Origin: a phage
Reading direction: 5' to 3' (one strand)
Length of the DNA stretch: 59,223 nucleotides
Assembly: GCA_025276375.1 (NCBI GenBank)
Contig: GCA_025276375.1_3645.1
Positions 23,995 through 46,066 of the stretch are shown here, piece after piece. The notes beneath the pieces were generated by a model. That model saw nothing but the letters and a program-made list of their open reading frames with translations, searched no databases and was not told where the DNA came from. The first letter of the stretch is position 1. Each line of letters begins with the position of its first letter. The translations under genes were made by a program, and so were the position numbers.

Positions 23995-24228
23995 TTAATC
24001 TTCGTAAATCAGGATTTCTGCTTTAGGTTTTCGTGCTTTCAGGTCCAGCTCTATCCAGTGCACCATAGCTGTTTCAAGAAAAACAGCTTGGATGCATCCG
24101 TCCTCAGCGTGCCCCACCAACATAACAAGATCTTCACATTCGTCATCTGCATCACGAACATACAGAATCTCTCCAGATTCAAAGTCTTTCACAACCTGAT
24201 TGCTGGATAATTTACGAATTTTTGCCAT
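23995..24228 (-). CDS. hypothetical protein (77 aa)
   Basis: ATG with AGAGGG SD. Confidence 0.4.
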   Translation of the reverse strand: MAKIRKLSSNQVVKDFESGEILYVRDADDECEDLVMLVGHAEDGCIQAVFLETAMVHWIELDLKARKPKAEILIYED

Positions 24229-24229
24229 A

Positions 24230-24493
24230 TCAGAAACCCTCTAAAAAGCTCTTGTAGAAAATAATTTCAGTGTCCACACCTGTCACGATCTTATCGTTTC
24301 GGATCTCATCTGTGAGGTAGGTATCGAAACGTAGTACTTGTGTAGTATTGTCACACATCCACTCAGCTGTGACCATTGCGAAAATCTTAGCATCTTCATT
24401 ATCTGGTGTGAATGTTACCACCTCGCCGCACTTAAACTTTTCGATAGGTTGAGTGTTAGCTTTCGGTTCTGCGATAGTGATTTTCGTGGTCAT
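24230..24493 (-). CDS. hypothetical protein (87 aa)
   Basis: ATG with GGAGGAAGAG SD. Confidence 0.45.
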   Translation of the reverse strand: MTTKITIAEPKANTQPIEKFKCGEVVTFTPDNEDAKIFAMVTAEWMCDNTTQVLRFDTYLTDEIRNDKIVTGVDTEIIFYKSFLEGF

Positions 24494-24750
24494 TACTCTT
24501 CCTCCATAGTTTCACCAAATACTTCGATACGAGCATCGAGCTCGGTTGCTTTCAGCTCCCCAACAAAATATTTTAGTTCTTTCTCTTCCAGATCGTAAGC
24601 CCACACACAAGAAGAACATGCAGATTTCACAATCAGCAGCGTAGATACACGACCTGACTCTGTGATCATGCTCACAATGGTTCCCACAGGGAACGTGTTG
24701 ATAGCTTTTTTAACTGGGCGTTCAGCTTTAATTACTACCTCTGTTGCCAT
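24493..24750 (-). CDS. hypothetical protein (85 aa)
   Basis: start moved to ATG 24750 (GAGAGGA SD at 8 nt); ORF-track start 24759 has no spacer. Confidence 0.4.
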   Translation of the reverse strand: MATEVVIKAERPVKKAINTFPVGTIVSMITESGRVSTLLIVKSACSSCVWAYDLEEKELKYFVGELKATELDARIEVFGETMEEE

Positions 24751-24765
24751 AAATAACATCCTCTC

Positions 24766-26226
24766 TTACTTAGCGTACTCGATTAATTCCACAGTTTTCC
24801 CAAAGCTCGGGATATAATTTTTATTATACCCTTCAGTGAGAACCCATAAAGTATCGTACTTTTTCCACTTGTTGTCAACAGCCTTTTGTTCAAAGTTATG
24901 CTCAAAGTATAGGTCGGTCAGGACGATGACATCTTTCGCATTCGGTATGTTGGCATCCAGATACTCGAACACGCAAGCAGCTGTTGTGCCCCATGTTGAG
25001 TGGACCTCATAGTTGATCATTTCGTCTATGTTGCCGCGAGTATATACTTTAACCTCTCCGACTTCAGTTGACCAACAGAACATTGTAACCTTAAACTCTT
25101 TGTACAGATTGCACAATCCGGTGATTTCATTGAACATTTTCTTTAAAGTTCTTTGAGAGATCGAGCCAGAAACGTCTAAAGCCACCACAATATCTATAGT
25201 GTTTTCCGGATTACGACCAGGAACAATAACGTGCTGGTTCTTGTTTATAGCCCCAACTTTTCGCATTGTGCTGGTCAAAGATCCAGATCGACGACCAGGT
25301 TTTCTGTAGGTCAGTTCAGCCTTTCGTTTAGACAACATGCGTTGCTTAATGATGTCTATATAGTTGATTACAGGCTTACCTCTGTTCTTGACAAACTCAC
25401 GCACCGCCTCAGGGCAACGGCCTCCGGACGCTTGCATTGCTGCCTCCAGCATATCACCAGAGTCCTGCATGGCCTGATCTTTATCAGATTGGCTGATTAC
25501 AGGTTGTGGCTGATCATACCCCATAGCCTTTCCAAGATTATCACTGGTGCCACCGTTCCCACTCATGTGATCATCGGTTTGTCGCTTATCACCTTGAGAG
25601 TTCTCACCTTTACCGTTCTTACTTTTACCACTATTCTGATCTCTTTGCTTATCAAGAACTGCATAGACGTTCTCAGCAATCCATCCATGAAACCTCATGT
25701 CGCAGTAGCAGCTGGCTAAGAAACCAAAAGGTTTACCTTTTACGAACGTAGTGCTTTTCCCTTTTGGGAAGAAAACACAAGGAGGCTTGCTAAAGTCAAC
25801 CACAAGGCCTGTGTTGATGACGTGATCACAAGCAATGTTGAACAGTTCCGGTTCAAAGCTTTTACCACGGACCAGGTGATCACAGATAATATGTCCCACC
25901 TCATGTGACAGAAGAAAGGCCACCTCTTTCACAGATTTGGGGGAATAGAAAACCTCAGCCATCTCAAACTGCCCGTCAGTTAGAGAAGCCTTAAGAATAG
26001 CCTTGCGTTCATCAGCCAACCCCATAATGAACTCAGGACTGTAATAGATGCGTTTATGGTCGGTTGCCATGGTGGAGCACCATGTGTGGTTTTCTACGAA
26101 CTGCAACCCTGACAGTAGCGTGCCATAAAACGGCAGCTTTTCAAGAAGATACATACGTGCAGCTTGCAACATTCTCAGGGCATCATCTTTCTGTGAGGCA
26201 ATGATTTCTGAACTTCTGCTATCCAT
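24766..26226 (-). CDS. zincin-like metallopeptidase / von Willebrand factor A domain protein
   Basis: 'HEVGHIICDH' (HExxH) in N-terminal half; 'VVALDVSGSIS' (MIDAS DxSxS) in C-terminal half; start moved to ATG 26226 (GGAG at 5 nt) because ATG 26247 lies in a hairpin loop without SD. Confidence 0.65.
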   Translation of the reverse strand: MDSRSSEIIASQKDDALRMLQAARMYLLEKLPFYGTLLSGLQFVENHTWCSTMATDHKRIYYSPEFIMGLADERKAILKASLTDGQFEMAEVFYSPKSVKEVAFLLSHEVGHIICDHLVRGKSFEPELFNIACDHVINTGLVVDFSKPPCVFFPKGKSTTFVKGKPFGFLASCYCDMRFHGWIAENVYAVLDKQRDQNSGKSKNGKGENSQGDKRQTDDHMSGNGGTSDNLGKAMGYDQPQPVISQSDKDQAMQDSGDMLEAAMQASGGRCPEAVREFVKNRGKPVINYIDIIKQRMLSKRKAELTYRKPGRRSGSLTSTMRKVGAINKNQHVIVPGRNPENTIDIVVALDVSGSISQRTLKKMFNEITGLCNLYKEFKVTMFCWSTEVGEVKVYTRGNIDEMINYEVHSTWGTTAACVFEYLDANIPNAKDVIVLTDLYFEHNFEQKAVDNKWKKYDTLWVLTEGYNKNYIPSFGKTVELIEYAK

Positions 26227-35196: not shown

Positions 35197-36566
35197 TGGA
35201 AAAAGGGCAGTATGATGTAGGCACAGATGCTGCCCTCGTTGCAATCATGAGTGGTGAGAATGTCTTCGTTTCAGGACCTGCAGGTTGTGGGAAGACGTAT
35301 CTCATCAACATGATCCAGTCAATGTATGGAGACTCTTGCATAACGGTTGCCCCGACAGGGGTAGCCGCTTTAAACGTTAATGGAGCAACAGCACACCGAA
35401 CCTTCGATCTTGCAGCAGGTGTGAGCATGGAGTCAGACTGGACCGCAATAAGGGCAAAAACAGCAAAGCCTTTGAAAAGCAAGGCATTTACCATCCTGAT
35501 TATCGATGAAATCTCTATGATCCGTGCTGATAAGTTTATAGAGATGGATAGGAAACTCCGCTTCCTTCGAAAAAATGACAAACCTTTCGGAGGCATACAG
35601 GTAATATTGTTTGGCGATTTTTACCAGGCACCTCCTGTTGTCTCTTCTATGGAGAAGGAAGCCTACTTCAACTTCTACCATACGGACCTGTGTTGCTATA
35701 CCGAATCTTGGAAAGAGCTTGACCTCCACAACATAGCCCTAGTAGATCAGTTCCGACAGGAGTCTATTCGATTTGCCACAATGCTCAACTGTGTTCGTGA
35801 GGGTCGTCGCATAAAAGAGGTTGTAGCAGAACTTAATGCTCGCTGTTACAAAGGCGGCGTACCAACAGATGCTCTCACAATTTGCGCCACCAACAAACAA
35901 GCAGAGGAAGTAAACAGAAGGTTCTATGATGCCATCAACGCCCCAGAGAAGGTATACACTGGTGAAATGAAGGGTAAGTTTCCCTCCACCCTGCCAGTTG
36001 AGCAGGAGATGAAGTTGAAAATTGGTATGAAAGTTATGATAACCGCCAACGATGTTGACCCGACGCACAAGGTACCTTATTATGTTAACGGAACACGTGC
36101 CACAATTGTTAAATTTAAGAACAAGGCGGTGGTGGTAGAGCTTGAAGATGGAACACAGGTTGACATAGAGCAGAGGTTGTGGGAGAATAACGAGTATAAG
36201 CCATCTCAGAGATACAACATTGCAGAAAGGAAGATGGAGAAGTTTATAGAGAGGGTAGTGATTGGGTCATACAAGCAACTTCCTCTGAAATCTGGGTACG
36301 CCGTAACATCTCATAAAAGTCAAGGGCTTACGCTAGATTGTTACAACCTAGACCTTGGAAAGAACGGAGCTTTCTCTCCTGGGATGACGTATGTCGCTTT
36401 GAGTAGAGTTAAGACAATACAAGGAATAAACTTGTTGCGTCCACTAAGAGAAGTTGACATTATTGTTGACCCGCGAGTCGTAGAGTTTTACAATACAACA
36501 TTCCCTGACTTAGACAAAATTGTCAGGAAAGATTTTGAAACCAGAGCAGAAGAGGGGGACGTATGA
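35196..36566 (+). CDS. dda: Dda-like SF1B DNA helicase
   Basis: Walker A 'GPAGCGKT', Walker B 'IIDEISM', 'GDFYQ', 'YAVTSHKSQGLT', 'YVALSRVK'. Confidence 0.75.
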   Translation: MEKGQYDVGTDAALVAIMSGENVFVSGPAGCGKTYLINMIQSMYGDSCITVAPTGVAALNVNGATAHRTFDLAAGVSMESDWTAIRAKTAKPLKSKAFTILIIDEISMIRADKFIEMDRKLRFLRKNDKPFGGIQVILFGDFYQAPPVVSSMEKEAYFNFYHTDLCCYTESWKELDLHNIALVDQFRQESIRFATMLNCVREGRRIKEVVAELNARCYKGGVPTDALTICATNKQAEEVNRRFYDAINAPEKVYTGEMKGKFPSTLPVEQEMKLKIGMKVMITANDVDPTHKVPYYVNGTRATIVKFKNKAVVVELEDGTQVDIEQRLWENNEYKPSQRYNIAERKMEKFIERVVIGSYKQLPLKSGYAVTSHKSQGLTLDCYNLDLGKNGAFSPGMTYVALSRVKTIQGINLLRPLREVDIIVDPRVVEFYNTTFPDLDKIVRKDFETRAEEGDV

Positions 36567-36904
36567 GTTTGTGGAGAAATATCGTTAACTACGTGTGTGG
36601 CAATCCGACTCCTGAAGAGAAGGATGTTGTGATTCACGATTTTACTAAAAGATCTCGTGAAAAAGATCTACTGCTAACAAAGGTGACTGATAAAGATCCT
36701 GCAGTAGGGGACTGGGCAGGTTTTGCGTTTACATCGGACAAATACACCTTTAACAAAGGTGACTACCTTGTTGTAGATTTTAACGAAGACATTGAGGGTG
36801 CTGAACCTTACTATCAAACCCTTATTGTTGCAGGGTGTGTTAATCTCTCTGCAAGCATGCACAGTTTGATTCTTTTTGAGCTTGACTCTGAAGACCTTGA
36901 GTAG
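36563..36904 (+). CDS. hypothetical protein (113 aa)
   Basis: ATG overlapping upstream stop. Confidence 0.4.
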   Translation: MSLWRNIVNYVCGNPTPEEKDVVIHDFTKRSREKDLLLTKVTDKDPAVGDWAGFAFTSDKYTFNKGDYLVVDFNEDIEGAEPYYQTLIVAGCVNLSASMHSLILFELDSEDLE

Positions 36905-36965
36905 TAAGATGTGAGTATAAAGGGGAGGCACTCCTCCCCACAAAAACTAAGGAGAGCACCAAACG

Positions 36966-38291
36966 ATGAGTAAAACCAAATTAGAACTTACCTGGATAGG
37001 TAAAAACGAGCGCAAAAAGTTAGAGCCGCACATTTTGTTAGAAGATTCTAGCAAATCTTACCACAGCCAGAAAGTGACCGAAAACGATATTTTTGATAAT
37101 AAACTGATTTTTGGAGATAACTTATTAGCATTGAAGGCGCTAGAGCAAGAGTATGCAGGCAAAGTGAAGTGTGTTTACATAGACCCACCATTCAATACCG
37201 GGAGGGCTTTTGAGCACTACGATGATAGCCTAGAGCATTCCATTTGGCTGGGCTTAATGAGGGATAGGTTAGAAATAATTCGTAATCTTCTGAGTGATGA
37301 TGGGGTAATATTCGTTCACTTAGATGGTTGCGAAATGGCGTATTTAAAAGTTTTGATGGACGAGATTTTTGGTCGTGCAAATCAGTTAAATACCATCTCG
37401 ATGACCACAAATTCCCCTTCAGGATTTAAGGCAACAGGAGCCACAGTTTTCTCCACAGCAAACTTTTTGCTTGTATATGCAAAAGATCGCAACCAGAAAC
37501 CGCTTAACAAAATCTATATACCTAAAGGGTATGATACAGGATATAACAAATACCTATTAAACCCGGATGACCATTATAAAAATTGGACGTGGTGTGGTAT
37601 TGCCGATGCGTTTGCAAAGGCCAATGGCTATAAAGATGCAAAAGAAGCCAAGAAAAAACTGCCTGACACATTCGATGATGAATTGGCACAATTCGCAATT
37701 GATAATGCAGAACGTGTATTTCAATCTGTTGCAATTGGTGGTGGTGCTAAAATAAAGAGAAAAGAAACTATCGAGAAGTCAAAGAAAGATAGGGATAAGG
37801 TTTATGTACATCCAAATGAGGATGTTGAAGGATTTTATATCGCAAATGGTAGGCAAATGGTCTTTTACTCCAACAGGCTTTTGGAAATTGACGGTGAGAT
37901 GCAGCCTGCGGAACTAATAACTGATGTTTGGACAGATATTAGTTGGAATGGAATAGCAAATGAAGGTGGCGTTAGTTTCAAAAATGGTAAAAAACCAGAA
38001 GCGCTTTTGAAGCGGATTTTCGAAATGTGTACGCGAGAAGGCGATTTGGTATTGGATTCATTCGGTGGTTCGGGAACTACTGCTGCTGTAGCTCACAAAA
38101 TGAAAAGACGTTGGATCTTGATCGAACTGGGTGATCATTGTCATACCCATATTATTCCGCGCTTGGAAAAAGTGATCGATGGCGAAGATCAAGGTGGTAT
38201 TTCTAAGTCTGTAAACTGGCAAGGTGGTGGTGGCTTCCGTTATTACAAACTTACCCCGGCCTTAATTGCGAAAGATATGTCTGATCAATAA
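36966..38291 (+). CDS. DNA methyltransferase, N6-adenine/N4-cytosine beta-class (Type III Mod-like, orphan)
   Basis: 'YIDPPFN' (motif IV DPPF) followed much later by 'LDSFGGSGTT' (motif I); no adjacent restriction subunit. Confidence 0.75.
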   Translation: MSKTKLELTWIGKNERKKLEPHILLEDSSKSYHSQKVTENDIFDNKLIFGDNLLALKALEQEYAGKVKCVYIDPPFNTGRAFEHYDDSLEHSIWLGLMRDRLEIIRNLLSDDGVIFVHLDGCEMAYLKVLMDEIFGRANQLNTISMTTNSPSGFKATGATVFSTANFLLVYAKDRNQKPLNKIYIPKGYDTGYNKYLLNPDDHYKNWTWCGIADAFAKANGYKDAKEAKKKLPDTFDDELAQFAIDNAERVFQSVAIGGGAKIKRKETIEKSKKDRDKVYVHPNEDVEGFYIANGRQMVFYSNRLLEIDGEMQPAELITDVWTDISWNGIANEGGVSFKNGKKPEALLKRIFEMCTREGDLVLDSFGGSGTTAAVAHKMKRRWILIELGDHCHTHIIPRLEKVIDGEDQGGISKSVNWQGGGGFRYYKLTPALIAKDMSDQ

Positions 38292-38304
38292 AGAGTACAA
38301 TCAA

Positions 38305-38610
38305 ATGATGAAACGTTATAAACCATACACTTTTGAAATCGATTTCGAACTTGACGATATGTTTACTGTAGAAGCTCAGGCAGTTGTCCAGTTGCCAGAC
38401 CCGGAGTGCCGTGATTCTGATGTTGACTATTACGGATTTAGACAAATTACCGATGTGCATGTTTACCACAACGGTGAAGAGGTGGACTTCCACCAACTGC
38501 CAAACGATTTGCGACACTCAATTTACAAACGTGCAGCCCGTGAACTAGAGTCCTATCTGGATGCAGCGACGACAGCAGCTGCATTTGCTGAAGAAGTGGG
38601 AGGTTTCTGA
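38305..38610 (+). CDS. hypothetical protein
   Basis: first ATG downstream of the methyltransferase stop; weak SD. Confidence 0.35.
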   Translation: MMKRYKPYTFEIDFELDDMFTVEAQAVVQLPDPECRDSDVDYYGFRQITDVHVYHNGEEVDFHQLPNDLRHSIYKRAARELESYLDAATTAAAFAEEVGGF

Positions 38611-39008
38611 TGATTACAGGTGTGAAGATTATACAATACCACTTAACTAAATTGGAAGACGCTGAAAAAGAGCTTGCAGAAGTTCTGAATAGTGGATATA
38701 CTTTGCTATCATGCGCCTGCTCAGATACCTACGCTGTGTGGACACTTATCCGGAAGGAAGAGCCTGCGGGGATCTTGGTGCCAAACCCTAAGATCATTAG
38801 TGAGGTGGATGACTATGCTCAGGACGGCCTGCCAGAAGGCTGGGAAGTATGGGAAGGTGGTGAAAACCCTGCACCAGGTAAGTGGGTAAAATACAAACTA
38901 CGTAGCGGTGCACAGTACGCTGACTACTCTGATGACCTGGATTGGAGTCATTCTTCACCAGGATCATCTGCAAGTTCATATGATATCATAGCTTTTCAGG
39001 AAGAATAA
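38610..39008 (+). CDS. hypothetical protein (132 aa)
   Basis: ATG overlapping upstream stop. Confidence 0.4.
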   Translation: MITGVKIIQYHLTKLEDAEKELAEVLNSGYTLLSCACSDTYAVWTLIRKEEPAGILVPNPKIISEVDDYAQDGLPEGWEVWEGGENPAPGKWVKYKLRSGAQYADYSDDLDWSHSSPGSSASSYDIIAFQEE

Positions 39009-39020
39009 GGAGATAGTGTT

Positions 39021-39503
39021 ATGTCAGATTTTATGTGGAAAGTAGGTTACGCAGCTCCTGAAATGTGTGAGGCTTGCTTTGTGAAAATAGGCCGCGAGGA
39101 TATCGACAAAGTGATCCTTAAGTTTCGTGATGTGGCTGTGATCGGCAACCGAGTGCTTAAGCACTTAAAGAATCTGAAGCTCACTAAAAAGAAGTTCTTC
39201 GGACTTTTCGAAGAGAAAGTTGATGCTTGGACCCATTGCATCCAGGAAGCTAAATCTCACTACAGTGCTATCGTTACTCCAGAACGGGTAGCCAAGATGG
39301 AAGGATTCATCAACAGCACAGAATTTGAGTGTCTGAAAGCTGCACTCGATAGTTATCCGAAATGCCTCAAGCACTTGGACAAGTATGTAGAAAAGGATGG
39401 GGAAATGTATCTCACCCTGGACGCATACTATGAGATGCAAGAAATTTTAAATTTAGATTTGACATTGGTATCCACCGAGTATACAATAGGTATCCGGGTT
39501 TAA
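39021..39503 (+). CDS. hypothetical protein (160 aa)
   Basis: AAGGAG SD. Confidence 0.45.
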   Translation: MSDFMWKVGYAAPEMCEACFVKIGREDIDKVILKFRDVAVIGNRVLKHLKNLKLTKKKFFGLFEEKVDAWTHCIQEAKSHYSAIVTPERVAKMEGFINSTEFECLKAALDSYPKCLKHLDKYVEKDGEMYLTLDAYYEMQEILNLDLTLVSTEYTIGIRV

Positions 39504-39509
39504 CACTAG

Positions 39510-39536
39510 GCCCTGCCCGAAAGGGTGGGGCTTTTT
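39510..39536 (+). terminator. intrinsic terminator, GCCCUGCCC-GAAA-GGGUGGGGC plus UUUUU
   Basis: 9-bp stem with two G-U pairs, GNRA tetraloop, T-tract. Confidence 0.75.
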
Positions 39537-39554
39537 GCATTAGGAGACAGCAAA

Positions 39555-40319
39555 TTGAAATTCATCTACAAAGAACACTACCACAAAGGTGTTGTGTGGA
39601 GTCTATTTGACGGGTCTGGTGGTGCAGTTATTGACTGGGCAAAAGCTGGGTACCTGTGCCTGTGCTTTAATGCAGAAGGTGCTGACCACGGCAGTTATGC
39701 AGAGGTGATAACCGATCATCCTAACATTCACTATGTGGATTATTGGATTGACCCATGGTTCCCTCAAGAAACTTTTTGCATGTATCCAGCTCCAGACTTT
39801 ATTCTTGCATTTCCTCCGTGCACGCATTTAGCGGTATCAGGAGCTGCACACTTTAAGAAAAAGCTGGCTAAGGACCCACTGATCCAAATTAATGCTGTAA
39901 AGGATGCTCGGGTTGCGGAAGAGTTGGGAGAGATTTACGATTGCCCGTGGCATGTAGAGAATCCTGTAGGTGTTATGTCCACACTGTGGCGCAAACCTGA
40001 TTACCGTTTTCATCCTTCTGACTATGGCGGGTATTTACCGGAGGATGATGTAAACCCCTGGTTTCCTGAATTTATAGCTCCACGTGATGCCTATCCAAAA
40101 ATAACTTGCGGCTGGATAGGTAATGGATTTATAATCCCGGCCACAAAACCTGTCCCGCAAATAGTTGACGCGGTTAGCGGGTATTCCATGCAACACGCCA
40201 AGCTGGGTGGAAAGAGTGCAAGAACAAAGATGATTCGAAGCCTCACACCACGTGGCTGGGCAAAAGCCGTATTCTTAGCAAACGAGCCTGTAGTAAGGAG
40301 CAGAATTAATGGGAAGTAA
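39555..40319 (+). CDS. putative DNA cytosine-5 methyltransferase-like protein (short)
   Basis: 'LFDGSGG' (motif I FxGxGG), 'FPPCTHLAVSG' (PC motif IV), 'HVENPVG' (ENV motif VI) in canonical order; TTG start after AGGAG; only 254 aa so target-recognition region is atypical. Confidence 0.4.
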   Translation: MKFIYKEHYHKGVVWSLFDGSGGAVIDWAKAGYLCLCFNAEGADHGSYAEVITDHPNIHYVDYWIDPWFPQETFCMYPAPDFILAFPPCTHLAVSGAAHFKKKLAKDPLIQINAVKDARVAEELGEIYDCPWHVENPVGVMSTLWRKPDYRFHPSDYGGYLPEDDVNPWFPEFIAPRDAYPKITCGWIGNGFIIPATKPVPQIVDAVSGYSMQHAKLGGKSARTKMIRSLTPRGWAKAVFLANEPVVRSRINGK

Positions 40320-42387
40320 ATTTATGGCATCTGCATACAACCGTTTCGGTGAGCCAAACCCGAAAGCAACTAAGTATAAAAGTGGGGGAAGTGTGAAACG
40401 AGACTATCGTGATGAAAAAGAGGTTGAAACTGTAGAGACTGTTTTAGAAAATACTAAAATCGTCCCTGTCCCACAACAAAATATCGGTCTGATGGCTGCA
40501 CAATATTTTGGTGTGCGATCAGCATTGTCCCAAGAAGACGGTGTGACAGTTACTGCAACATATTTCCCATATTACGACCGCTACGGGAATCTGTCAGGTT
40601 TCAAAAAGCGTGACTGGACGATCCCCAAAGAGCAACGTGGGCACTTTACGACGGTTGGGATCGTAAAGGCTAACTCCCAAATGTTTGGGCAAAAGCTGTG
40701 TGCATCTTCTAACAACCGTAAGCAGATTAACGTTTGTGAGGGAGAAGGCGATGTTATTGCAGCATGGCAGGCTGCATATCAGATACAAGTAAAAGGGATT
40801 CTCACCAACGCTAAAGCCCCGGCAAAGGTGAAACAGTGGGCTAAAGAGGTCCAGGACGGGATCGATGCAGTTATCAACGGGGGCGATCTGGCAGGAAAAC
40901 CCTGCCTGCCTTTTGTTGGAATTAACTGTGGATGTGCAAACGCAGTAGATACTTTTGCAAACAATGAGAAATTTATCCGTAGCTATGGAACAGTTGTGCT
41001 GGCAATGGATAACGATGCAGCTAACGAGGTAGAGAAGCAAAAACACGTCATTAAAGGTGTTGAGGCCACGCACAATATCGCAGCATTTTTGATGGCTGAT
41101 AACGTTTACCACGTGGAATATCCTGGCGAGGTAAACGACCCTGATGGTGTAAAAGATATCCGTGACATGCTGAAGGCTAAAAAGCTGGAAGATATTGTAA
41201 ACATGTTCCGGCATCCTGTTAAGTATGTGCCGGATGCTGTGTCGGATTTAGAAGACTTCTCTATCGAATCTTTGCGGAAAAAGACTTCCAACGGGGTAGA
41301 TATCAGCGCAGAGTTCCCAAAACTGCAAAAAATGCTGAAAGGCTTGCACAAAGGGACACTTGTAATGCTTACAGGTCCATCAGGAGGCGGTAAAACAACT
41401 GTAGCTAAAAAACTGGAACACTGTATTGCAAGATACCTAATGGACCCGACATGTCCAAAGGCTGATGATTACGAAGAGGATGATCGTCTATGCATGATTC
41501 ATCTTGAGGAGGACCCAGAGGAAGCAATTAACTCCTTGTATGCAAACCAGTTAGGGTTTGATGTTAAAGAGTTTGTTGAAGATCCTAGCCAGTTTTTAAC
41601 TGATCAAGAACACGCAGAGATTCACCAATCATGGGCAAAAGCTGGAAAAATCAAAGTGTTCAAACATTTCGGATCTATTCCGGTGGACGAGTTGATTACC
41701 AAGCTTAAGCAAATGGTTTGCCTGTACCATTGCCGTTATATTGTGCTGGATCACCTGTCCATGGTAATTTCAGGGCTTAATGTTAAGGATGAGCGAAAAG
41801 AGCTGGATATGGCTATGACTCAACTGGCTGCGTTTTGTAAGCAGTTTAACGTGTTTATCCTAGTGATCGCTCACCTCAAACGTACAGAGATTGTGCCTCC
41901 TAAGGACAAGGATGGTAACCCGTTACCTTTCTGGTATCCTGTGCGAAAAGAGAATTTGCGAGGATCGGCTGGGCTTGAACAGTTGAGTTGGGTAGTCATA
42001 GGTGTTGAGGCTGAAGAAATGGTAGATCGTTCTCGTGGTCGTGTCCGTTTAGTAGGTCTTAAAAACCGTCCAGCAAAAACATTGGGTATTGCGGATACTT
42101 TGGTTATGGACCCACATACAGGTAAGTTCCATGATGCCAGTAATTGGTACTGGGACAAAGAAATGCAGATGTTTACAGACGGAGAAGGTGGGGAGGTTGT
42201 TTGGAGACCTCAGGCCATGTTTGAGGACCAAGAGCATGCAGTTGTAGAAACACCTATGGGCAAGGTTGTAGCTGATAAGGTTGTAACTCCTACTATTAAG
42301 CCTGTTGACACGCAGGAAGACCTCCAGTACGATGATCCATCTTCTGATCCGGTCCCCGGTTTTGAAGATGATGAAACACCTTTTTAA
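40309..42387 (+). CDS. DNA primase-helicase (T7 gp4-like: TOPRIM plus DnaB-family helicase)
   Basis: TOPRIM 'VCEGEGD' and 'LAMDNDAANE'; helicase Walker A 'GPSGGGKTT', Walker B 'YIVLDHLS'. Confidence 0.8.
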   Translation: MGSKFMASAYNRFGEPNPKATKYKSGGSVKRDYRDEKEVETVETVLENTKIVPVPQQNIGLMAAQYFGVRSALSQEDGVTVTATYFPYYDRYGNLSGFKKRDWTIPKEQRGHFTTVGIVKANSQMFGQKLCASSNNRKQINVCEGEGDVIAAWQAAYQIQVKGILTNAKAPAKVKQWAKEVQDGIDAVINGGDLAGKPCLPFVGINCGCANAVDTFANNEKFIRSYGTVVLAMDNDAANEVEKQKHVIKGVEATHNIAAFLMADNVYHVEYPGEVNDPDGVKDIRDMLKAKKLEDIVNMFRHPVKYVPDAVSDLEDFSIESLRKKTSNGVDISAEFPKLQKMLKGLHKGTLVMLTGPSGGGKTTVAKKLEHCIARYLMDPTCPKADDYEEDDRLCMIHLEEDPEEAINSLYANQLGFDVKEFVEDPSQFLTDQEHAEIHQSWAKAGKIKVFKHFGSIPVDELITKLKQMVCLYHCRYIVLDHLSMVISGLNVKDERKELDMAMTQLAAFCKQFNVFILVIAHLKRTEIVPPKDKDGNPLPFWYPVRKENLRGSAGLEQLSWVVIGVEAEEMVDRSRGRVRLVGLKNRPAKTLGIADTLVMDPHTGKFHDASNWYWDKEMQMFTDGEGGEVVWRPQAMFEDQEHAVVETPMGKVVADKVVTPTIKPVDTQEDLQYDDPSSDPVPGFEDDETPF

Positions 42388-42445: not shown

Positions 42446-44875
42446 ATGAGCATGTATAGCTTCGATTTTGAGGCCTCCGGGCTTTTGGAAGACCCAGATC
42501 TTTATTATCACTGCGGCCTGTTTAAAGAGCTGAATAAGAACCGTTTTATGCTGTTCCTCCCTCTAAATGACCGCACACACTACTCCGAGGAGGATATAGA
42601 GAAGGCTAAGAACTTTATTCTGGCAAAGAAAGCTCTTTATAAAGATTTTGAAGTTCGCATAGCAGATTTTTCGGAGTTGGAAGGTTGGCTTACAGGCAAT
42701 TCCGACTGGTCACCAACAGCTTTGAACTGCCATAACTGCTATAGTTATGACTTTATGCTGATGGAGAGATTATCCGGTATTCATTTTGATATGTTCCGTG
42801 ATCCTAAATGTATGGGGACTATCAACGACCACCAGGTTAACCTGTTTGATACGTTGGCGATGAGCCGAATCTTGTGGCCTGATCGCCCTTTACCAAAAGG
42901 TTGTCCGGACGCTGTATTCAACCCGGTTACTAAGAAAATGCAGCCTGTTGGTCCTCACGGCCTTATGGCATGGGGCTACGCCCTTGGTAACCAGAAAGTT
43001 CAAATTGATGACTGGCGCGATCTTCCGTTATGGAAGTATGTGGATCGTGTATTTGAGGACGTTATCATCCAGGAGCTGCTCTGGAAAGAGCTGGTAGCGG
43101 AATCAAAAGGTGTATTCTACGGCAAATCTGACATGCAGAACTTTATGTACGATCCTGCCAAAGAGAAGCCGAAAGGGTTCAAGAAGATTACCTGGAAGAA
43201 TGCATTACGCCGAGGCATGCTGCAGCATTTCCTGATGGAGCTGCAGGCTCGACAGGGTGTGTATTTCGACATAGATGGGGCTATTGCTTTACGTGACCGC
43301 TGCGATGCGTGGATGAAAGAGATCGCTGATCGTGTTGAACCACAACTTCCTTTAAAAGAGTTATCAATGTCTCAGCGGCCTAAGTTCCCTGAAAAGCCGT
43401 TTAACCAGGATGGGACAATCTCCAATAATGGTTGGAAATGGTTAAAAGACAAGCTTGGCTATCCTGTGGACATGAGCGCTTTAGAGTTCAAAGCTCCTCC
43501 TAAGCGAGCATTTACCTCCACAGGGGATGTCAGCAAAATGGGGATAAAATGGTGTGAAGAGATGGGCTGCAAAGACCCCGATAAGATGGCTGATTTCTTA
43601 AGGGGGTATATTAAAGGGACCTCTACACCACATCCTTTACCTAAAGAGCTAATGGATCAGGCAATAAGTGATCTACAGCAGAAGCGGATGCCTGACTGCA
43701 AGATACCTATGAAGATCAGCAACCAGGACGATATTAAGAGATACCTGATCAGTGCTGGTTGGCTCCCAACAATGTGGAGAACTAAGGATGTAACTAAAGA
43801 CAGCAAGAAGAAAGCTCTACCTGATGCAGATGTTGATGCACGAGTATATGCATATATGGACGAGCTTTTAGAGTCAGAGTATTGTGACCTGATTATCAAC
43901 TTCTGGAACAAAACTGATGCTAAGTTCCAGACAACCGTGCACAAGTTCCGAAGCTTTCCTAACTCCGAAAGGATTAAAAAGGAAGTATTCGGGAAAATAC
44001 GTAGAAAAGCCAGGGCACTTATTACTTCTCCGCAACTGAAAGATACGTTTGGACACCTATGTCCGAATCTTGAAAAATTGAACGGAGAGATGGCTAAAGA
44101 TATCGTCTTGTGGTTATCATTGCGAAACCGCAGATCGGTCCTTGATCCAATTAAGGAGGATAAGGTTGATACTGGTCTTCTTAATCACCCACGTTTGAAG
44201 ATTGACCATAAGCTTCCTGCTAAAAGCTCTGGATTAACAAACACTTCCAGACAGAAACACAGTATTTGTGCAAACATGCCTAAACCATCTCCTAAAGTGG
44301 TTATGGGTAAAGAGATGCGTAGTCTGTGGGGTGTTCCTCCAGGATACTTTGAGATCGGTATTGACGGGTCCAACTTAGAGCAGCTTATCGGGGCTTGGGG
44401 TGCCTTTGAGTTCGACAACGGCTTGTATTATGATGTTGTAAGTAACGGGGACGCACACCAAAACAATGCTGAGGCATATACAAAAGTAGCAGGCAGAGAG
44501 GTGTCTCGTAACGACGGTAAACCTATCACGTATGGGGTTATGTACGGGGCACAAAAAGATAAAGTTGCAGATATGCTGGACATCTCTCCAGAGTTGGGAC
44601 AAAGGGTAATCGATGCACTTTGGGATGCCAACCCTGGTCTTAAGGGGCGTAAAGAGGATCTGGAGAAATTCTGGGAAGCAACGGGTAAGAAGTTTATCTA
44701 CTCTTTTGATGGTCATGCCATCTGGACCCGATCTAAACACTCTTTACTTAATGCATACCAACAGAATGGTGGTGCATCGCTGTGTGACTTAGTTGGGATA
44801 CTCATGCACCACCAAATGGTGAAGCGTGGGTGGTACGATGAAGGTGTTCGTCGTATTATTTATTACCATAAATAA
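42446..44875 (+). CDS. family A DNA polymerase, exon 1 ORF (conserved sequence ends at about 44809-44812)
   Basis: exo motif 'FDFEASG', motif A 'DGSNLEQ', motif B 'RNDGKPITYGVMYG'; last 21-22 codons look like intron read-through. Confidence 0.8.
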   Translation: MSMYSFDFEASGLLEDPDLYYHCGLFKELNKNRFMLFLPLNDRTHYSEEDIEKAKNFILAKKALYKDFEVRIADFSELEGWLTGNSDWSPTALNCHNCYSYDFMLMERLSGIHFDMFRDPKCMGTINDHQVNLFDTLAMSRILWPDRPLPKGCPDAVFNPVTKKMQPVGPHGLMAWGYALGNQKVQIDDWRDLPLWKYVDRVFEDVIIQELLWKELVAESKGVFYGKSDMQNFMYDPAKEKPKGFKKITWKNALRRGMLQHFLMELQARQGVYFDIDGAIALRDRCDAWMKEIADRVEPQLPLKELSMSQRPKFPEKPFNQDGTISNNGWKWLKDKLGYPVDMSALEFKAPPKRAFTSTGDVSKMGIKWCEEMGCKDPDKMADFLRGYIKGTSTPHPLPKELMDQAISDLQQKRMPDCKIPMKISNQDDIKRYLISAGWLPTMWRTKDVTKDSKKKALPDADVDARVYAYMDELLESEYCDLIINFWNKTDAKFQTTVHKFRSFPNSERIKKEVFGKIRRKARALITSPQLKDTFGHLCPNLEKLNGEMAKDIVLWLSLRNRRSVLDPIKEDKVDTGLLNHPRLKIDHKLPAKSSGLTNTSRQKHSICANMPKPSPKVVMGKEMRSLWGVPPGYFEIGIDGSNLEQLIGAWGAFEFDNGLYYDVVSNGDAHQNNAEAYTKVAGREVSRNDGKPITYGVMYGAQKDKVADMLDISPELGQRVIDALWDANPGLKGRKEDLEKFWEATGKKFIYSFDGHAIWTRSKHSLLNAYQQNGGASLCDLVGILMHHQMVKRGWYDEGVRRIIYYHK

Positions 44876-45712
44876 CATTGTGGCTTCATAGAGTGATCTA
44901 TGTCGAATAACCTCTTTAATTGACGGGAAAGCTAAGTTGACTTTTACACCTGAGTATGGTAAAAGCTCAATATGCTAATCCGCAGCGAAGACTAAAGGGG
45001 TGTAGTTAAAATGGCTAGAACAGCTGATTATCACGGGTATACCGTGTTTGATGATGGAACAATACCTTTATCGAAACGTGATCATACAACAATGTTTTGT
45101 TTTGATAATGGTAGAGGTTACCTTTGCGTAACCATGCTAATCGAGGGGAAGCAGTGCACAAAAGGTGTCCACCACCTGGTTGCTGAATGCTTTGTATCAA
45201 ACCCAGATCCTGAAAGGCTCACATGGGTGAACCATAAGGATGGGAATAAGTACAACAATGCATACTGGAACCTGGAATGGACCACCCCTGGTGGAAATAT
45301 CAAGCACGCCTATGATAATGACCTCAGAGTAAGGCCAGTTGGTGAGTATAATGCCAACGCTGTGCTGACAGAAGATGAGGTAATAGAGATTTGCGAACTG
45401 TTGCAGAGTGGTCTACGACAATGCGAGATTAGGGATCTTGGATATCCTTATGAGACCGTCAGGGCTATAAAGCAAAGAAGACAGTGGAAACATATCTCTA
45501 AAAACTACACCTGGTAGTAACGTTCAGAGACTATCGAAAGCATAGCTCCAACACAGGTTGGTGTGAAGAAGCGAGTAGAGTAGGCCAGCAAGTGCGGTCG
45601 AAATGGGAGGTGCCTTGGTAACAAGGCAGTGAGGTAGTCCGATCCATACAGGAAACTGTATGGCTATGCACGTAATGGTGCGGGGTAGCTTAACGACCTA
45701 CCTGAACAGATG
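44810..45712 (+). mobile_element. putative group I intron carrying an HNH homing endonuclease ORF, inserted in DNA polymerase motif C
   Basis: joining 44809 to 45713 restores '...GILMH|DEYQLQV...' (motif C HDE); intron ends in G (45712); no SD before exon 2; GC-rich structured 3' region with 'CAGAGACTATCG' (P7-like). Confidence 0.55.
45011..45517 (+). CDS. HNH homing endonuclease (I-HmuI-like)
   Basis: 'VHHLVAECFVSNPDPERLTWVNHKDGNKYNNAYWNLEWTT' HNH core; AAAGGGG SD. Confidence 0.75.
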   Translation: MARTADYHGYTVFDDGTIPLSKRDHTTMFCFDNGRGYLCVTMLIEGKQCTKGVHHLVAECFVSNPDPERLTWVNHKDGNKYNNAYWNLEWTTPGGNIKHAYDNDLRVRPVGEYNANAVLTEDEVIEICELLQSGLRQCEIRDLGYPYETVRAIKQRRQWKHISKNYTW

Positions 45713-46066
45713 GATGAGTACCAACTTCAGGTTCCTGACACGCCTAAGTATAAGACTGTGTACACCTTCGACACAATTGAAGAATTGGAAGCATTTAAGG
45801 CAGAGCAGGAGGCCAAACTTCATGTGTTCGACGGTCATAAGTACAAAAAGGCACGCAAGGATGAAAACGGAAACGAAGTGGTTGACAGAGACGGAAACAC
45901 GGTGTACGATCCTATCTTGAACGATGACGGAAAGCTTGAACTTATCTGGAGCCCTGTGGGTGAAATGGTGGTGCATTGCTTCTGGCAAGCTTCTAAAATG
46001 ATGGGAGTCCCGTTCCAGATCACAGGTGAATACTTGTGTGGTCGTAACTGGGGTGATTGTCACTAA
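45710..46066 (+). CDS. family A DNA polymerase, exon 2 (C-terminal segment; coding probably begins at 45713)
   Basis: begins 'DEYQLQV' and ends 'GRNWGDCH', matching the Pol A C-terminal '...NW...H' end (T7 gp5, Klenow). Confidence 0.6.
   Translation: MDEYQLQVPDTPKYKTVYTFDTIEELEAFKAEQEAKLHVFDGHKYKKARKDENGNEVVDRDGNTVYDPILNDDGKLELIWSPVGEMVVHCFWQASKMMGVPFQITGEYLCGRNWGDCH

What the first reader, a model, noticed from the sequence alone, without database searches (positions are those of the whole stretch)
36966..40319. Two orphan DNA methyltransferases (beta-class amino-MTase and a short C5-like MTase) in the replication module
36966-38291 has DPPF (motif IV) before FxGxG (motif I), the beta-class order of Type III Mod-like enzymes, with no restriction partner nearby. 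39555-40319 has the C5-MTase motifs FxGxGG, PC and ENV but is only about 254 aa with a TTG start, so its target-recognition region is atypical. Together they suggest self-methylation as anti-restriction; the short C5-like enzyme could have a different substrate.
Basis: partly seen in the sequence, partly recalled or inferred. Interest (0 to 1): 0.45.

Follow-up and report, generated by a model that had tools for sequence, protein, structure and literature searches.

The report
Two orphan phage DNA methyltransferases
Both genes are real DNA methyltransferases of an rV5-like coliphage: one is a copy of an E. coli Type III restriction system's methylase that has lost the domain which holds the nuclease, and the other belongs to a large phage family of minimal cytosine-C5 methylases, so the finding is correct but largely ordinary.

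Summary
The window is part of a Vequintavirus (rV5-like) genome, and both ORFs are real and already annotated as methyltransferases in over 100 records.

**ORF1 (36966-38291, 441 aa)**
- It is a beta-class amino-methyltransferase: DPPF comes before FGGSG, and Pfam PF01555 scores 8e-42.
- It is 96% aa and 93.5% nt identical to the first ~437 residues of a 567-aa Mod. That Mod sits in a mod-res Type III operon found in 29 of 5426 complete E. coli genomes. dN/dS is 0.08.
- It stops in the linker before the C-terminal domain, which in EcoP15I makes the main contacts with Res.
- It is a clean presence/absence insertion among vequintaviruses, bounded by microhomology.
- The likeliest role is a stand-alone adenine methylase that pre-protects progeny DNA against that one host system.

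**ORF2 (39555-40319, TTG start, 254 aa)**
- It is 54% identical over its full length to the Dcm of phage KarlJaspers. The K42 strain's version of that Dcm has been shown to make 5mC and to trigger retron Ec86.

**Context and open points**
- Published Bas51 methylome data show m6A at GATC and GTAC. The GATC enzyme is a different gene that lies outside this window.
- Neither ORF's target sequence is known.
- Vequintaviruses are very sensitive to the restriction systems tested so far, so any protection must be narrow.

The parts
36949..36954 (+). Shine-Dalgarno (AAGGAG) used by ORF1. In phages that lack ORF1 the same site serves the downstream 100-aa gene.
   Evidence: Sequence read; three-way alignment.
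36953..38300 (+). Captured segment: the 5' ~1.35 kb of an enterobacterial Type III mod gene.
   Evidence: 93.5% nt identity over 1363 columns to E. coli L014 9987-11349. Absent from phage EduardKellenberger, with junctions at 36969 and 38303 and a 9-nt overlap.
36966..38291 (+). ORF1: a 441-aa beta-class N6-adenine methyltransferase, equivalent to a Type III Mod without its C-terminal domain.
37182..37193 (+). ORF1 catalytic motif IV, DPPF (residues 73-76).
   Evidence: D73, P74 and P75 are invariant in 27 homologues.
38061..38075 (+). ORF1 AdoMet-binding motif I, FGGSG (residues 366-370).
   Evidence: F366, G368, S369 and G370 are invariant.
38284..38304 (+). Leftover mod codons (INKEYNQ). 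They are now out of frame with ORF1 and in frame with the downstream gene.
   Evidence: The ORF starting at 38266 reads LINKEYNQMM, against INKEYNPEM in E. coli Mod. An 11-nt deletion relative to E. coli creates the ORF1 stop.
38308..38610 (+). 100-aa gene of unknown function immediately after the insertion (PHROG 4240).
38610..39008 (+). 132-aa gene of unknown function (PHROG 11995).
39021..39503 (+). 160-aa gene of unknown function (PHROG 12900).
39459..39487 (+). Sigma-70-type promoter (TTGACA-17-TACAAT, 11 of 12 matches) upstream of ORF2.
   Evidence: annotated as P231 in the rV5 record.
39508..39533 (+). Terminator-like hairpin (11 pairs plus a T-run) between the promoter and ORF2.
39542..39547 (+). 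Shine-Dalgarno (AGGAGA) for ORF2.
39555..40319 (+). ORF2: a 254-aa minimal DNA cytosine-C5 methyltransferase with a TTG start.
39606..39623 (+). ORF2 motif I, FDGSGG (residues 18-23).
39816..39821 (+). ORF2 motif IV, Pro-Cys (P88, C89). C89 is the predicted catalytic nucleophile.
   Evidence: Invariant; aligns with C82 of the KarlJaspers/K42 Dcm.
39957..39965 (+). ORF2 motif VI, ENP (residues 135-137).
   Evidence: Invariant; E135 aligns with E128 of the K42 Dcm.
40251..40259 (+). ORF2 C-terminal RGW, within the conserved IRSLTPRG(W/F)AxAV block (motif X-like).
   Evidence: The resemblance to DNMT3A 'GRSWSVPV' is from memory and was not tested.
40309..40319 (+). 11-nt overlap between the end of ORF2 and the start of the primase-helicase gene (40309-42387).

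Best explanation
The region holds two independent, functional, partner-less DNA methyltransferase genes of an rV5-like coliphage.

ORF1:
- It is the methyltransferase core plus target-recognition domain of a Type III restriction-modification Mod subunit.
- It was captured from an enterobacterial mod-res operon by microhomology-mediated insertion in front of a small phage gene. An 11-nt deletion then closed the reading frame in the linker before the C-terminal domain.
- That missing domain is the one that, in EcoP15I, makes the extensive contacts with the Res nuclease-motor.
- Inferred mechanism: ORF1 acts as a stand-alone enzyme, probably a dimer. It methylates N6 of adenine in the same short recognition site as the host system on replicating phage DNA, without contributing to a restriction complex. 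Progeny virions are then already protected when they meet a host that carries that Type III system.

ORF2:
- It is a minimal cytosine-C5 methyltransferase with a DNMT3-like tiny recognition region, from a large family found in phages and prophages.
- It has its own sigma-70 promoter and its end overlaps the start of the primase-helicase gene.
- Inferred mechanism: it methylates C5 of cytosine in phage DNA (and incidentally host DNA) through Cys89 and Glu135.

Shown versus inferred:
- Shown: the identities, ancestry, domain content, insertion boundaries and purifying selection.
- Inferred: enzymatic activity in this phage, the target sequences, and the anti-restriction role.
For: ORF1:
- Family assignment: PF01555 8e-42 and PADLOC Type III MTase 1.5e-203, covering profile positions 2-443 of 575.
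- Best solved relatives by sequence and by fold are the Type III Mods EcoP15I, 6k0w and Mbo45V.
- The E. coli protein P0273 (567 aa) is 96% identical. Nucleotide identity is 93.5%, with dN/dS 0.08 and dS 0.22.
- P0273 is followed by a 910-912-aa ResIII protein in a defence island. The mod-res pair is present in 29 of 5426 complete E. coli genomes.
- P0273 339-449 aligns with EcoP15I Mod 414-531, so ORF1 ends at about EcoP15I residue 520. That lies between the MTase domain (ends at 516) and the CTD (539-644) (domain limits and the CTD-Res contacts from PMC4490356).
- ORF1 is a clean indel among vequintaviruses, with microhomology at both junctions.
- A bacterial homologue carries the same boundary as a gene split: 452 aa, then 139 aa, then Res.

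ORF2:
- PHROG 757 at 5e-87.
- It is 54% identical (E=2e-86) over its full length to the KarlJaspers Dcm.
- The K42 variant of that Dcm makes 5mC on msDNA, measured by LC-MS, and depends on C82/E128/K175/K176. These align with C89/E135/K182/I183 of ORF2.
- The family is found in phages and prophages: 1504 phage records and a lambdoid prophage context with no nuclease alongside.

Phage DNA is methylated: Bas51 carries m6A.
Against: - No methylome or knockout exists for either gene, and neither target motif is known.
- Vequintaviruses are 'exceptionally susceptible' to the Type I, II and III systems tested (PMC8594841), so no protective effect has ever been observed.
- ORF1 is missing from roughly a quarter of related genomes: 88 records carry it against 117 that carry ORF2. 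It is frameshifted in some, for example EmilHeitz. It is therefore dispensable.
- The donor-like host system is rare, at 0.5% of complete E. coli genomes.
- The one experimentally assigned Bas51 adenine methylase (GATC) is a different gene, bas51_0176.
- ORF2 misses the Pfam PF00145 threshold, and one of the four residues mutated together in K42 Dcm is not conserved (K176 corresponds to I183).
Confidence: 0.7

Rival explanations
1. ORF1 is the enzyme that methylates the palindrome GTAC on both strands, the second m6A motif seen in Bas51 DNA. It would then behave like a Type II enzyme rather than recognising an asymmetric Type III site.
For: GTAC m6A accounts for 509-511 of 516 possible adenines and persists when the GATC enzyme is inactivated. 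E. coli K-12 has no GTAC methylase (established knowledge), so a phage enzyme must do this. ORF1's orthologue bas51_0070 is one of only two remaining candidates.
Against: ORF1 is 96% identical, including its recognition domain, to the Mod of a real mod-res Type III operon. Type III systems use asymmetric sites methylated on one strand (PMC12707154; PMC4490356). The other candidate, bas51_0200, is a compact gamma-class enzyme with NPPF at N85. That is the same class and layout as the known GTAC m6A enzyme M.HpyAXII, which has its catalytic Asn at N87. In addition, 349 'other' m6A calls remain in the mutant, close to the ~275 expected for a 5-bp asymmetric site (arithmetic).
Confidence: 0.2
2. 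ORF1 works mainly as a decoy or dominant-negative subunit rather than by modifying phage DNA. Lacking the Res-binding domain but keeping the dimer interface, it would pair with host Mod or occupy recognition sites, and so poison assembly of restriction-competent Mod2Res1 complexes during infection.
For: Mod dimerises through its N-terminal and MTase domains, both retained in ORF1, while Res is held largely by the CTD, which is missing (PMC4490356). The 96% identity to host Mod makes heterodimers plausible.
Against: The catalytic and AdoMet motifs are intact and the whole protein is under strong purifying selection (dN/dS 0.08). A pure decoy would not need this. In EcoP15I, Res also contacts the ModA MTase domain, so loss of the CTD may not abolish binding. 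There is no experimental hint either way.
Confidence: 0.12
3. The two enzymes serve phage-internal purposes such as marking replicated DNA, timing gene expression, or packaging and repair discrimination. They would not be anti-restriction devices.
For: Both sit in the replication module. ORF2 has its own sigma-70 promoter and overlaps the primase-helicase start. ORF2 is present in essentially all vequintaviruses and in 1504 phage records of many families. Vequintaviruses show no measurable restriction resistance, and the BASEL authors found no link between methyltransferase genes and restriction resistance in Drexlerviridae.
Against: ORF1's ancestry from a restriction system and its accessory, indel-type distribution fit a defence/counter-defence gene better than a core function. 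For ORF2 this reading cannot be excluded with the present data.
Confidence: 0.2
4. ORF2 does not make 5-methylcytosine. It would transfer another group (for example carboxymethyl from Cx-SAM, as CmoX does) or act on RNA.
Against: The 54%-identical K42 Dcm yields 5mC on DNA by LC-MS. ORF2 has FPPC, not the SPPC signature used to define CmoX. No cmoA or ligase gene lies nearby. DNMT3A/B, the best structural matches, also carry Arg at that motif yet use AdoMet (from memory). Positional equivalence of R233 and R350 was not tested.
Confidence: 0.05

Closest known systems
Mod subunit of an E. coli chromosomal Type III R-M system (cluster P0273, 567 aa; e.g. NZ_CP126944 915987-920450)
   Same: 96% aa and 93.5% nt identity across the N-terminal region, MTase core and target-recognition domain; same start codon region; DPPF and FGGSG intact.
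   Different: The phage copy lacks the last ~126 residues (the C-terminal domain), has no res gene beside it, and sits in a phage replication module.
EcoP15I / EcoP1I Mod (prototype Type III methyltransferases; PDB 4zcf)
   Same: Beta-class motif order with an inserted recognition domain. Best PDB matches by sequence (5.6e-24) and by fold (1.7e-18). Expected chemistry is N6-adenine methylation.
   Different: Only about 21% identity. ORF1 has no CTD (EcoP15I 539-644) and lacks most of the EcoP15I N-terminal helices, since its alignment starts at EcoP15I residue ~52. The recognition site is unknown.
Dcm-like methyltransferase of phage KarlJaspers / K42 (trigger of retron Ec86/Eco1)
   Same: Same family (PHROG 757) and similar length (254 vs 236 aa). 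54% identity over the full length. The catalytic Cys and Glu and one of the two Lys residues are conserved.
   Different: The loop before the GGKS motif differs (GYSMQHAKLGG vs DNPGWAKTGG), so specificity may differ. K176 is Ile in ORF2. The host phage is a myovirus rather than a drexlervirus. ORF2's activity is untested.
DNMT3A/DNMT3B catalytic domain and classical bacterial C5-methyltransferases (M.HhaI, M.HaeIII; Pfam PF00145)
   Different: 12-18% identity. No significant Pfam match. Motif VI reads ENP rather than ENV. There is no recognisable QxRxR motif VIII by eye. The recognition region is about 60 residues, against more than 100 in HhaI-type enzymes.
Phage orphan methyltransferases used against restriction (e.g. 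T4 Dam, P1 Dmt; general concept reviewed in PMC12707154)
   Same: A phage-borne methylase without a nuclease, expected to pre-modify DNA destined for export.
   Different: ORF1's bacterial source can be named, and the capture removed the nuclease-docking domain at a domain boundary. I found no report of this in the literature held here.

Membership tests
Beta-class amino-methyltransferases (Pfam PF01555 N6_N4_Mtase) - ORF1 | Score above the Pfam gathering threshold. | tested here: met
   144.1 bits against a cut-off of 26.7, E=8e-42.
Beta-class amino-methyltransferases (Pfam PF01555 N6_N4_Mtase) - ORF1 | Motif IV (D/S)PP(Y/F) lies N-terminal to motif I FxGxG, with the recognition domain between them. 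| tested here: met
   DPPF at 73-76 and FGGSG at 366-370. The Pfam match spans 67-393 with a long insert.
Type III R-M Mod subunit - ORF1 | Sequence and fold closest to known Mod proteins. | tested here: met
   PADLOC MTase_III 1.5e-203. The top PDB hits 6k0w, 4zcf and 7dsu are all Mods.
Type III R-M Mod subunit - ORF1 | C-terminal domain that docks the Res subunit. | tested here: not met
   ORF1 ends at the MTase-CTD linker. The homologous E. coli Mod continues for another 126 residues.
Type III R-M Mod subunit - ORF1 | Adjacent res gene (SF2 helicase-nuclease). | tested here: not met
   There is no res in the phage locus or in the complete Bas51 genome annotation. The E. coli homologue does have res directly downstream.
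Type III R-M Mod subunit - ORF1 | N6-adenine methylation of one strand of a short asymmetric site. | not testable with these tools
   This needs a methylome of wild-type versus ORF1-less phage. Published Bas51 data give only GATC, GTAC and 'other' counts.
DNA cytosine-C5 methyltransferases (Pfam PF00145) - ORF2 | Score above the Pfam gathering threshold. | tested here: not met
   No Pfam family at E<=0.01. A few homologues carry a precomputed PF00145 hit.
DNA cytosine-C5 methyltransferases (Pfam PF00145) - ORF2 | Motif I (FxGxGG), motif IV Pro-Cys nucleophile and motif VI Glu (ENV), in that order. | tested here: met
   FDGSGG at 18-23, PPC at 87-89, ENP at 135-137. Conserved in 27 homologues, and the third position of motif VI is Pro.
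DNA cytosine-C5 methyltransferases (Pfam PF00145) - ORF2 | C5-methyltransferase fold. | tested here: met
DNA cytosine-C5 methyltransferases (Pfam PF00145) - ORF2 | Motif VIII (QxRxR) arginine contacting the target cytosine. | tested here: inconclusive
   No QxRxR is visible. A nearly invariant R146 (WRKPD) is a candidate, but I could not superpose residues.
DNA cytosine-C5 methyltransferases (Pfam PF00145) - ORF2 | Product is 5-methylcytosine in DNA. | not testable with these tools
   Shown by LC-MS for the K42 Dcm, whose KarlJaspers Bas06 counterpart is 54% identical to ORF2. Not shown for ORF2.
Phage minimal Dcm-like family (PHROG 757; K42 Dcm) - ORF2 | Full-length profile match and size of about 225-260 aa. 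| tested here: met
   E=5e-87 over residues 10-261. 2008 representatives at 50% identity, nearly all 210-260 aa.
Phage minimal Dcm-like family (PHROG 757; K42 Dcm) - ORF2 | Residues shown necessary (as a quadruple mutant) in K42 Dcm: C82, E128, K175, K176. | tested here: met
   C89, E135 and K182 are conserved; K176 corresponds to I183. Three of the four are kept, including both catalytic residues.

The most novel reading that the evidence does not exclude
The removal of the C-terminal domain from the captured Mod is adaptive rather than accidental. ORF1 would be a dual-action counter-defence. It pre-methylates phage DNA at the host system's site. Because it keeps the dimer interface but cannot dock Res, it would also titrate host Mod or occupy sites so that functional Mod2Res1 nucleases cannot assemble on incoming or replicating phage DNA. 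CTD-less Mods in other phages (for example the 84%-identical 444-aa copy at a different locus) would then mark a recurrent anti-Type III strategy.
Probability: 0.15. Interest if true: 0.55.

Novelty: new member of a known kind. Interest (0 to 1): 0.3.

Why it matters
**What it changes.** Phage orphan methyltransferases are a known counter-defence, so the category is not new, and both genes are already annotated.

**What is useful here.**
- ORF1 gives an unusually clean, datable example of a phage taking the 'antidote' half of a host restriction system. The donor-type operon, the insertion junctions and a truncation at a domain boundary can all be read from sequence.
- This yields a directly testable prediction: ORF1-positive vequintaviruses should escape one rare E. 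coli Type III system, while ORF1-less relatives should not.

**Practical relevance.**
- rV5-like phages are used for typing and therapy. Their methylases affect host range.
- The same kinds of enzyme are triggers of retron defences.
- The analysis also corrects a likely confusion. The Bas51 'N6 adenine methyltransferase' shown to methylate GATC and trigger retrons is not this gene.

Tried and rejected
1. **GTG start at 39525 for ORF2.** Rejected. It lies inside the terminator-like hairpin, and the TTG at 39555 has the Shine-Dalgarno.
2. **ORF1 orthologue as the Bas51 GATC enzyme and retron trigger of PMC12548924.** Rejected. The mutated residues D69/D79/T83 do not exist in ORF1 (C69/G79/E83) but match bas51_0176.
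3. **Assigning the GTAC m6A activity.** Homology, Pfam and PDB searches with bas51_0200 gave no named relative. Literature searches gave only the class of M.HpyAXII. Unresolved.
4. **Finding the recognition site of the E. coli Type III system or any vequintavirus 5mC data in the literature.** Nothing found.
5. **Pfam, NCBIfam, PADLOC and single-sequence PDB searches for ORF2.** No significant hit. A profile search against PDB gave only weak hits (E 0.2-0.4), all C5-methyltransferases. The fold search was needed to settle it.
6. **ORF 38308-38610 as the detached Mod C-terminal domain.** Rejected. A tblastn of the E. coli CTD against the region gave only E=0.18.
7. **Cx-SAM (carboxymethyl) reading of ORF2.** Considered unlikely.
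8. **Restriction partner near either gene.** None found in the phage.

Full report
**Where the window comes from.** The 4-kb stretch 36500-40500 is 97-99% identical to more than 100 GenBank phage records. Nearly all are rV5-like E. coli myoviruses of the genus Vequintavirus, with genomes of about 131-143 kb. The gene order around the finding is rIIA, rIIB, a PIF1/Dda-like helicase, a 113-aa ORF, ORF1, three small ORFs, ORF2, primase-helicase and DNA polymerase. 'Replication module' is therefore a fair description.

**Checking the observation: ORF1.** ORF1 (36966-38291, 441 aa) has DPPF at residues 73-76 and FGGSG at 366-370. It matches Pfam N6_N4_Mtase at 8e-42, with a long insert between the two halves. 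It also matches PHROG 67 at 5e-62 and a PADLOC Type III methyltransferase profile at 1.5e-203.

**Checking the observation: ORF2.**
- ORF2 is best read from the TTG at 39555. An AGGAGA Shine-Dalgarno lies 7 nt upstream, and the alternative GTG at 39525 is inside a strong hairpin. The rV5 and BASEL annotations use the same 765-nt CDS.
- It carries FDGSGG, PPC and ENP.
- It has no Pfam, NCBIfam or PADLOC hit but matches PHROG 757 'DNA methyltransferase' at 5e-87.
- No nuclease or res-like gene is near either ORF.

**What ORF1 is: a copy of an E. coli Type III Mod.**
- The homologue search returned an E. coli chromosomal protein cluster, P0273 (567 aa, 334 member sequences), that is 96% identical to ORF1 over 99% of its length. 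It also returned hundreds of 560-600-aa bacterial proteins that are 58-76% identical across the whole length, including the recognition domain.
- At the DNA level, window 36953-38300 is 93.5% identical to the first ~1.35 kb of the E. coli gene.
- Between the phage and E. coli copies dS is 0.22 and dN/dS is 0.08. Both have therefore stayed under strong purifying selection, and the recognition domain differs at only a handful of residues.
- In E. coli the gene is followed directly by a 910-912-aa ResIII protein. The pair lies in an island with an SNF2 helicase, Abi_2 and AIPR genes.
- The mod-res pair occurs in 29 of 5426 complete E. coli genomes. It is always chromosomal and always has both genes.
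- ORF1 is thus a copy of the Mod of a genuine, rare, E. coli Type III restriction-modification system.

**What ORF1 is: where it stops.**
- The PADLOC profile is matched only over positions 2-443 of 575.
- P0273 residues 339-449 align with EcoP15I Mod 414-531. This puts the end of ORF1 at about EcoP15I residue 520.
- In the EcoP15I structure the methyltransferase domain ends at 516 and the C-terminal domain spans 539-644. [quoted passage not shown]
- ORF1 therefore keeps the catalytic core and the recognition domain and lacks the Res-docking domain.
- An AlphaFold model of ORF1 (pLDDT 76) finds EcoP15I Mod, the 6k0w Mod and Mbo45V Mod as its best solved matches, at 1.7e-18 to 1e-13.
- The same boundary appears as a gene split (452 aa, then 139 aa, then Res) in a bacterial homologue. 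An 84%-identical 444-aa version sits at a different locus in another large phage.

**How ORF1 got there.**
- Phage EduardKellenberger (Bas59) lacks ORF1 entirely. Its 342-nt gene is followed after 60 nt by the 303-nt gene that lies downstream of ORF1 in the window.
- The two flanks of the window (up to 36969, and from 38303) abut in that phage with a 9-nt overlap.
- Three-way alignments show short shared strings at both junctions: AGCAC..AAA(C/T)GATGA on the left and AAATG on the right.
- The last captured codons (INKEYNQ) are still readable, but in the frame of the downstream gene. An 11-nt deletion relative to E. coli just upstream shifts ORF1 into a TAA stop.
- The simplest history is a microhomology-mediated insertion of the 5' three quarters of mod as an in-frame fusion to the small phage gene, followed by a deletion that separated them.
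- The direction bacteria to phage is supported in three ways. The bacterial genes are full length with res partners across many phyla, the phage copy is truncated, and insert-free phages exist.
- Precise loss through the same microhomology in the ORF1-less phages cannot be excluded.
- About 88 records carry ORF1 against about 117 carrying ORF2 at 90% identity or more. In some phages ORF1 is frameshifted. It is an accessory gene.

**What ORF2 is.**
- A 27-sequence alignment shows invariant PPC, ENP and a C-terminal GGKS..TK.IRSLTPRG block.
- A profile search of PDB sequences gives only weak hits (E 0.2-0.4). All are C5-methyltransferases, aligned from motif I to the Pro-Cys motif.
- The AlphaFold model (pLDDT 86, pTM 0.87) settles the fold. 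The best 35 Foldseek hits include DNMT3A/B catalytic domains and the prophage CP-933R methyltransferase.
- The family is large and uniform in size. It has more than 3500 clusters at 90% identity, 2008 representatives at 50% identity and 1504 phage records across many coliphage and Klebsiella phage groups.
- A bacterial member sits in a lambdoid prophage between Dam and NinG, with no nuclease alongside.

**Published evidence on ORF2's family.**
- ORF2 is 54% identical (E=2e-86, full length) to the 711-bp 'Dcm-like' gene of phage KarlJaspers.
- For the K42 strain of that phage (95.4% genome identity), a preprint shows three things. Escape from retron Ec86 maps to this gene. Its expression raises 5mC in msDNA, measured by LC-MS. 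A C82A/E128A/K175A/K176A mutant is inactive (10.1101/2023.08.16.553469).
- These residues align with C89, E135, K182 and I183 of ORF2.
- The authors assume a CCWGG target, but their data do not establish it rigorously.
- ORF2's loop before the GGKS motif differs from the K42 type, so I leave its specificity open.
- Inference from established knowledge: these phages are routinely grown on McrBC-positive K-12 MG1655 (host field). The methylated cytosine is therefore probably not preceded by a purine.

**What is known about methylation of these phages.**
- A 2025 study sequenced Bas51 (WalterGehring, a vequintavirus with orthologues of both ORFs) on nanopore.
- In wild type it reported 1405 m6A calls at GATC, 509 at GTAC and 576 at other sites. 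In a T83P mutant of 'the N6 adenine methyltransferase' the counts were 35, 511 and 349 (PMC12548924).
- The Bas51 genome has 703 GATC and 258 GTAC sites, which is 1406 and 516 adenines. Both motifs are therefore essentially saturated.
- The mutated residues D69, D79 and T83 do not exist in ORF1's orthologue (C69, G79, E83). They match bas51_0176, a 177-aa NPPY enzyme far outside this window.
- So the published GATC activity and retron-trigger function belong to another gene.

**Who makes the GTAC methylation.**
- GTAC methylation must come from ORF1's orthologue or from bas51_0200, a 272-aa gamma-class enzyme.
- I favour bas51_0200. The known GTAC m6A enzyme M.HpyAXII is a compact gamma-class protein with its catalytic Asn at position 87, against N85 in bas51_0200.
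- A Type III Mod that is 96% identical to one paired with Res is expected to use an asymmetric site methylated on one strand.
- The 349 residual 'other' calls are close to the ~275 expected for a 5-bp asymmetric site. This is suggestive only.
- Searches with bas51_0200 gave no named relative, so the assignment stays open.

**How it most likely works.**
- ORF1: expressed during infection, the CTD-less Mod methylates adenine in the recognition site of its parent system on replicating phage DNA. Packaged genomes are then pre-modified and escape that Type III system in the next host. Losing the CTD means the phage enzyme should not recruit host Res and so should not add to restriction. This last step is inferred from the EcoP15I structure.
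- ORF2: a Cys89/Glu135-dependent C5 methylation of phage DNA. It has its own sigma-70-type promoter (39459-39487, also annotated in rV5), then a terminator-like hairpin, a Shine-Dalgarno and a weak TTG start. Its end overlaps the primase-helicase start by 11 nt. This layout suggests low, early expression.
- Any protection must be narrow. BASEL phenotyping found vequintaviruses 'exceptionally susceptible' to the EcoKI, EcoRI, EcoRV, EcoP1 and CFT073 systems (PMC8594841).
- There is also a cost. Phage methylases of both kinds are sensed by retrons.

**Comparison with the known, and novelty.**
- Both genes are annotated as methyltransferases in many records. The original rV5 note even says 'similar to amino terminus of ... 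adenine specific DNA methylase'.
- ORF2's family has been characterised experimentally.
- The added points are the near-identical host Type III operon, the truncation at a domain boundary, the insertion junctions, and the separation of this gene from the published GATC enzyme. I found no report of these in the library.
- This is a new, well-documented member of a known kind (phage orphan methylases taken from host restriction systems). It is not a new kind of system.
- Interest is modest at 0.3. It would rise if the CTD loss proved to be an active anti-restriction device.

Noticed in passing
window 39459-39554: A near-consensus sigma-70 promoter (39459-39487) is followed by a strong terminator-like hairpin with a T-run (39508-39533). 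Only then come the Shine-Dalgarno and the TTG start of ORF2. This could be an attenuator or structured leader, or simply the terminator of the upstream gene with a read-through promoter.
   Followed up: partly
GenBank records MG065635-MG065690 (hits H4-H18, H148, H149 etc.): About 40 unannotated records named 'Campylobacter phage', with host C. jejuni, are 97-98% identical to E. coli vequintaviruses across this region. They look mislabelled or are contaminant assemblies.
   Followed up: no
window 42446-46066: The DNA polymerase ORF stops at 44875. It is followed by a 168-aa HNH/AP2-like ORF (45011-45517) and a 118-aa ORF (45710-46066). In Bas51 the polymerase is annotated as a two-piece join with a homing endonuclease inside, so the window's polymerase gene is probably interrupted by an intron and homing endonuclease.
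   Followed up: partly
L009 (MZ501111) 8091-8624 and 24069-24887, outside the window: Complete vequintavirus genomes carry two more adenine methyltransferases. One is a 177-aa NPPY enzyme, which is the published GATC methylase and retron Asa1/Squ1 trigger. The other is a 272-aa gamma-class enzyme with no named relatives, and it is the likelier source of the GTAC m6A.
   Followed up: partly
L014 4106-14464 (E. coli GCA_017785775.1 contig DADUEI010000021.1): The donor-like Type III mod-res pair sits in a defence island: AlpA-type regulator, 964-aa SNF2 helicase, Abi_2, AIPR, mod, res, then IS66 genes.
   Followed up: no
window 38308-38610: The 100-aa gene just downstream of the insertion has a weak hit (4e-5) to PHROG 1573, annotated 'DNA methyltransferase'. 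It shows no similarity to the missing Mod C-terminal domain. Its function is unknown.
   Followed up: partly
L019/L020 8001-11112 (metagenome contigs): A 442-aa CTD-less homologue (65% identical) is followed by a 560-628-aa protein with a weak Tn7 TnsA-like nuclease hit, not by a ResIII protein. This may be a different pairing of this methylase with a nuclease.
   Followed up: no
window 36922-36939: A perfect GC-rich hairpin (GGGGAGGCACTCCTCCCC) lies between the upstream 113-aa gene and ORF1. It is conserved in the ORF1-less phage, so it predates the insertion.
   Followed up: no
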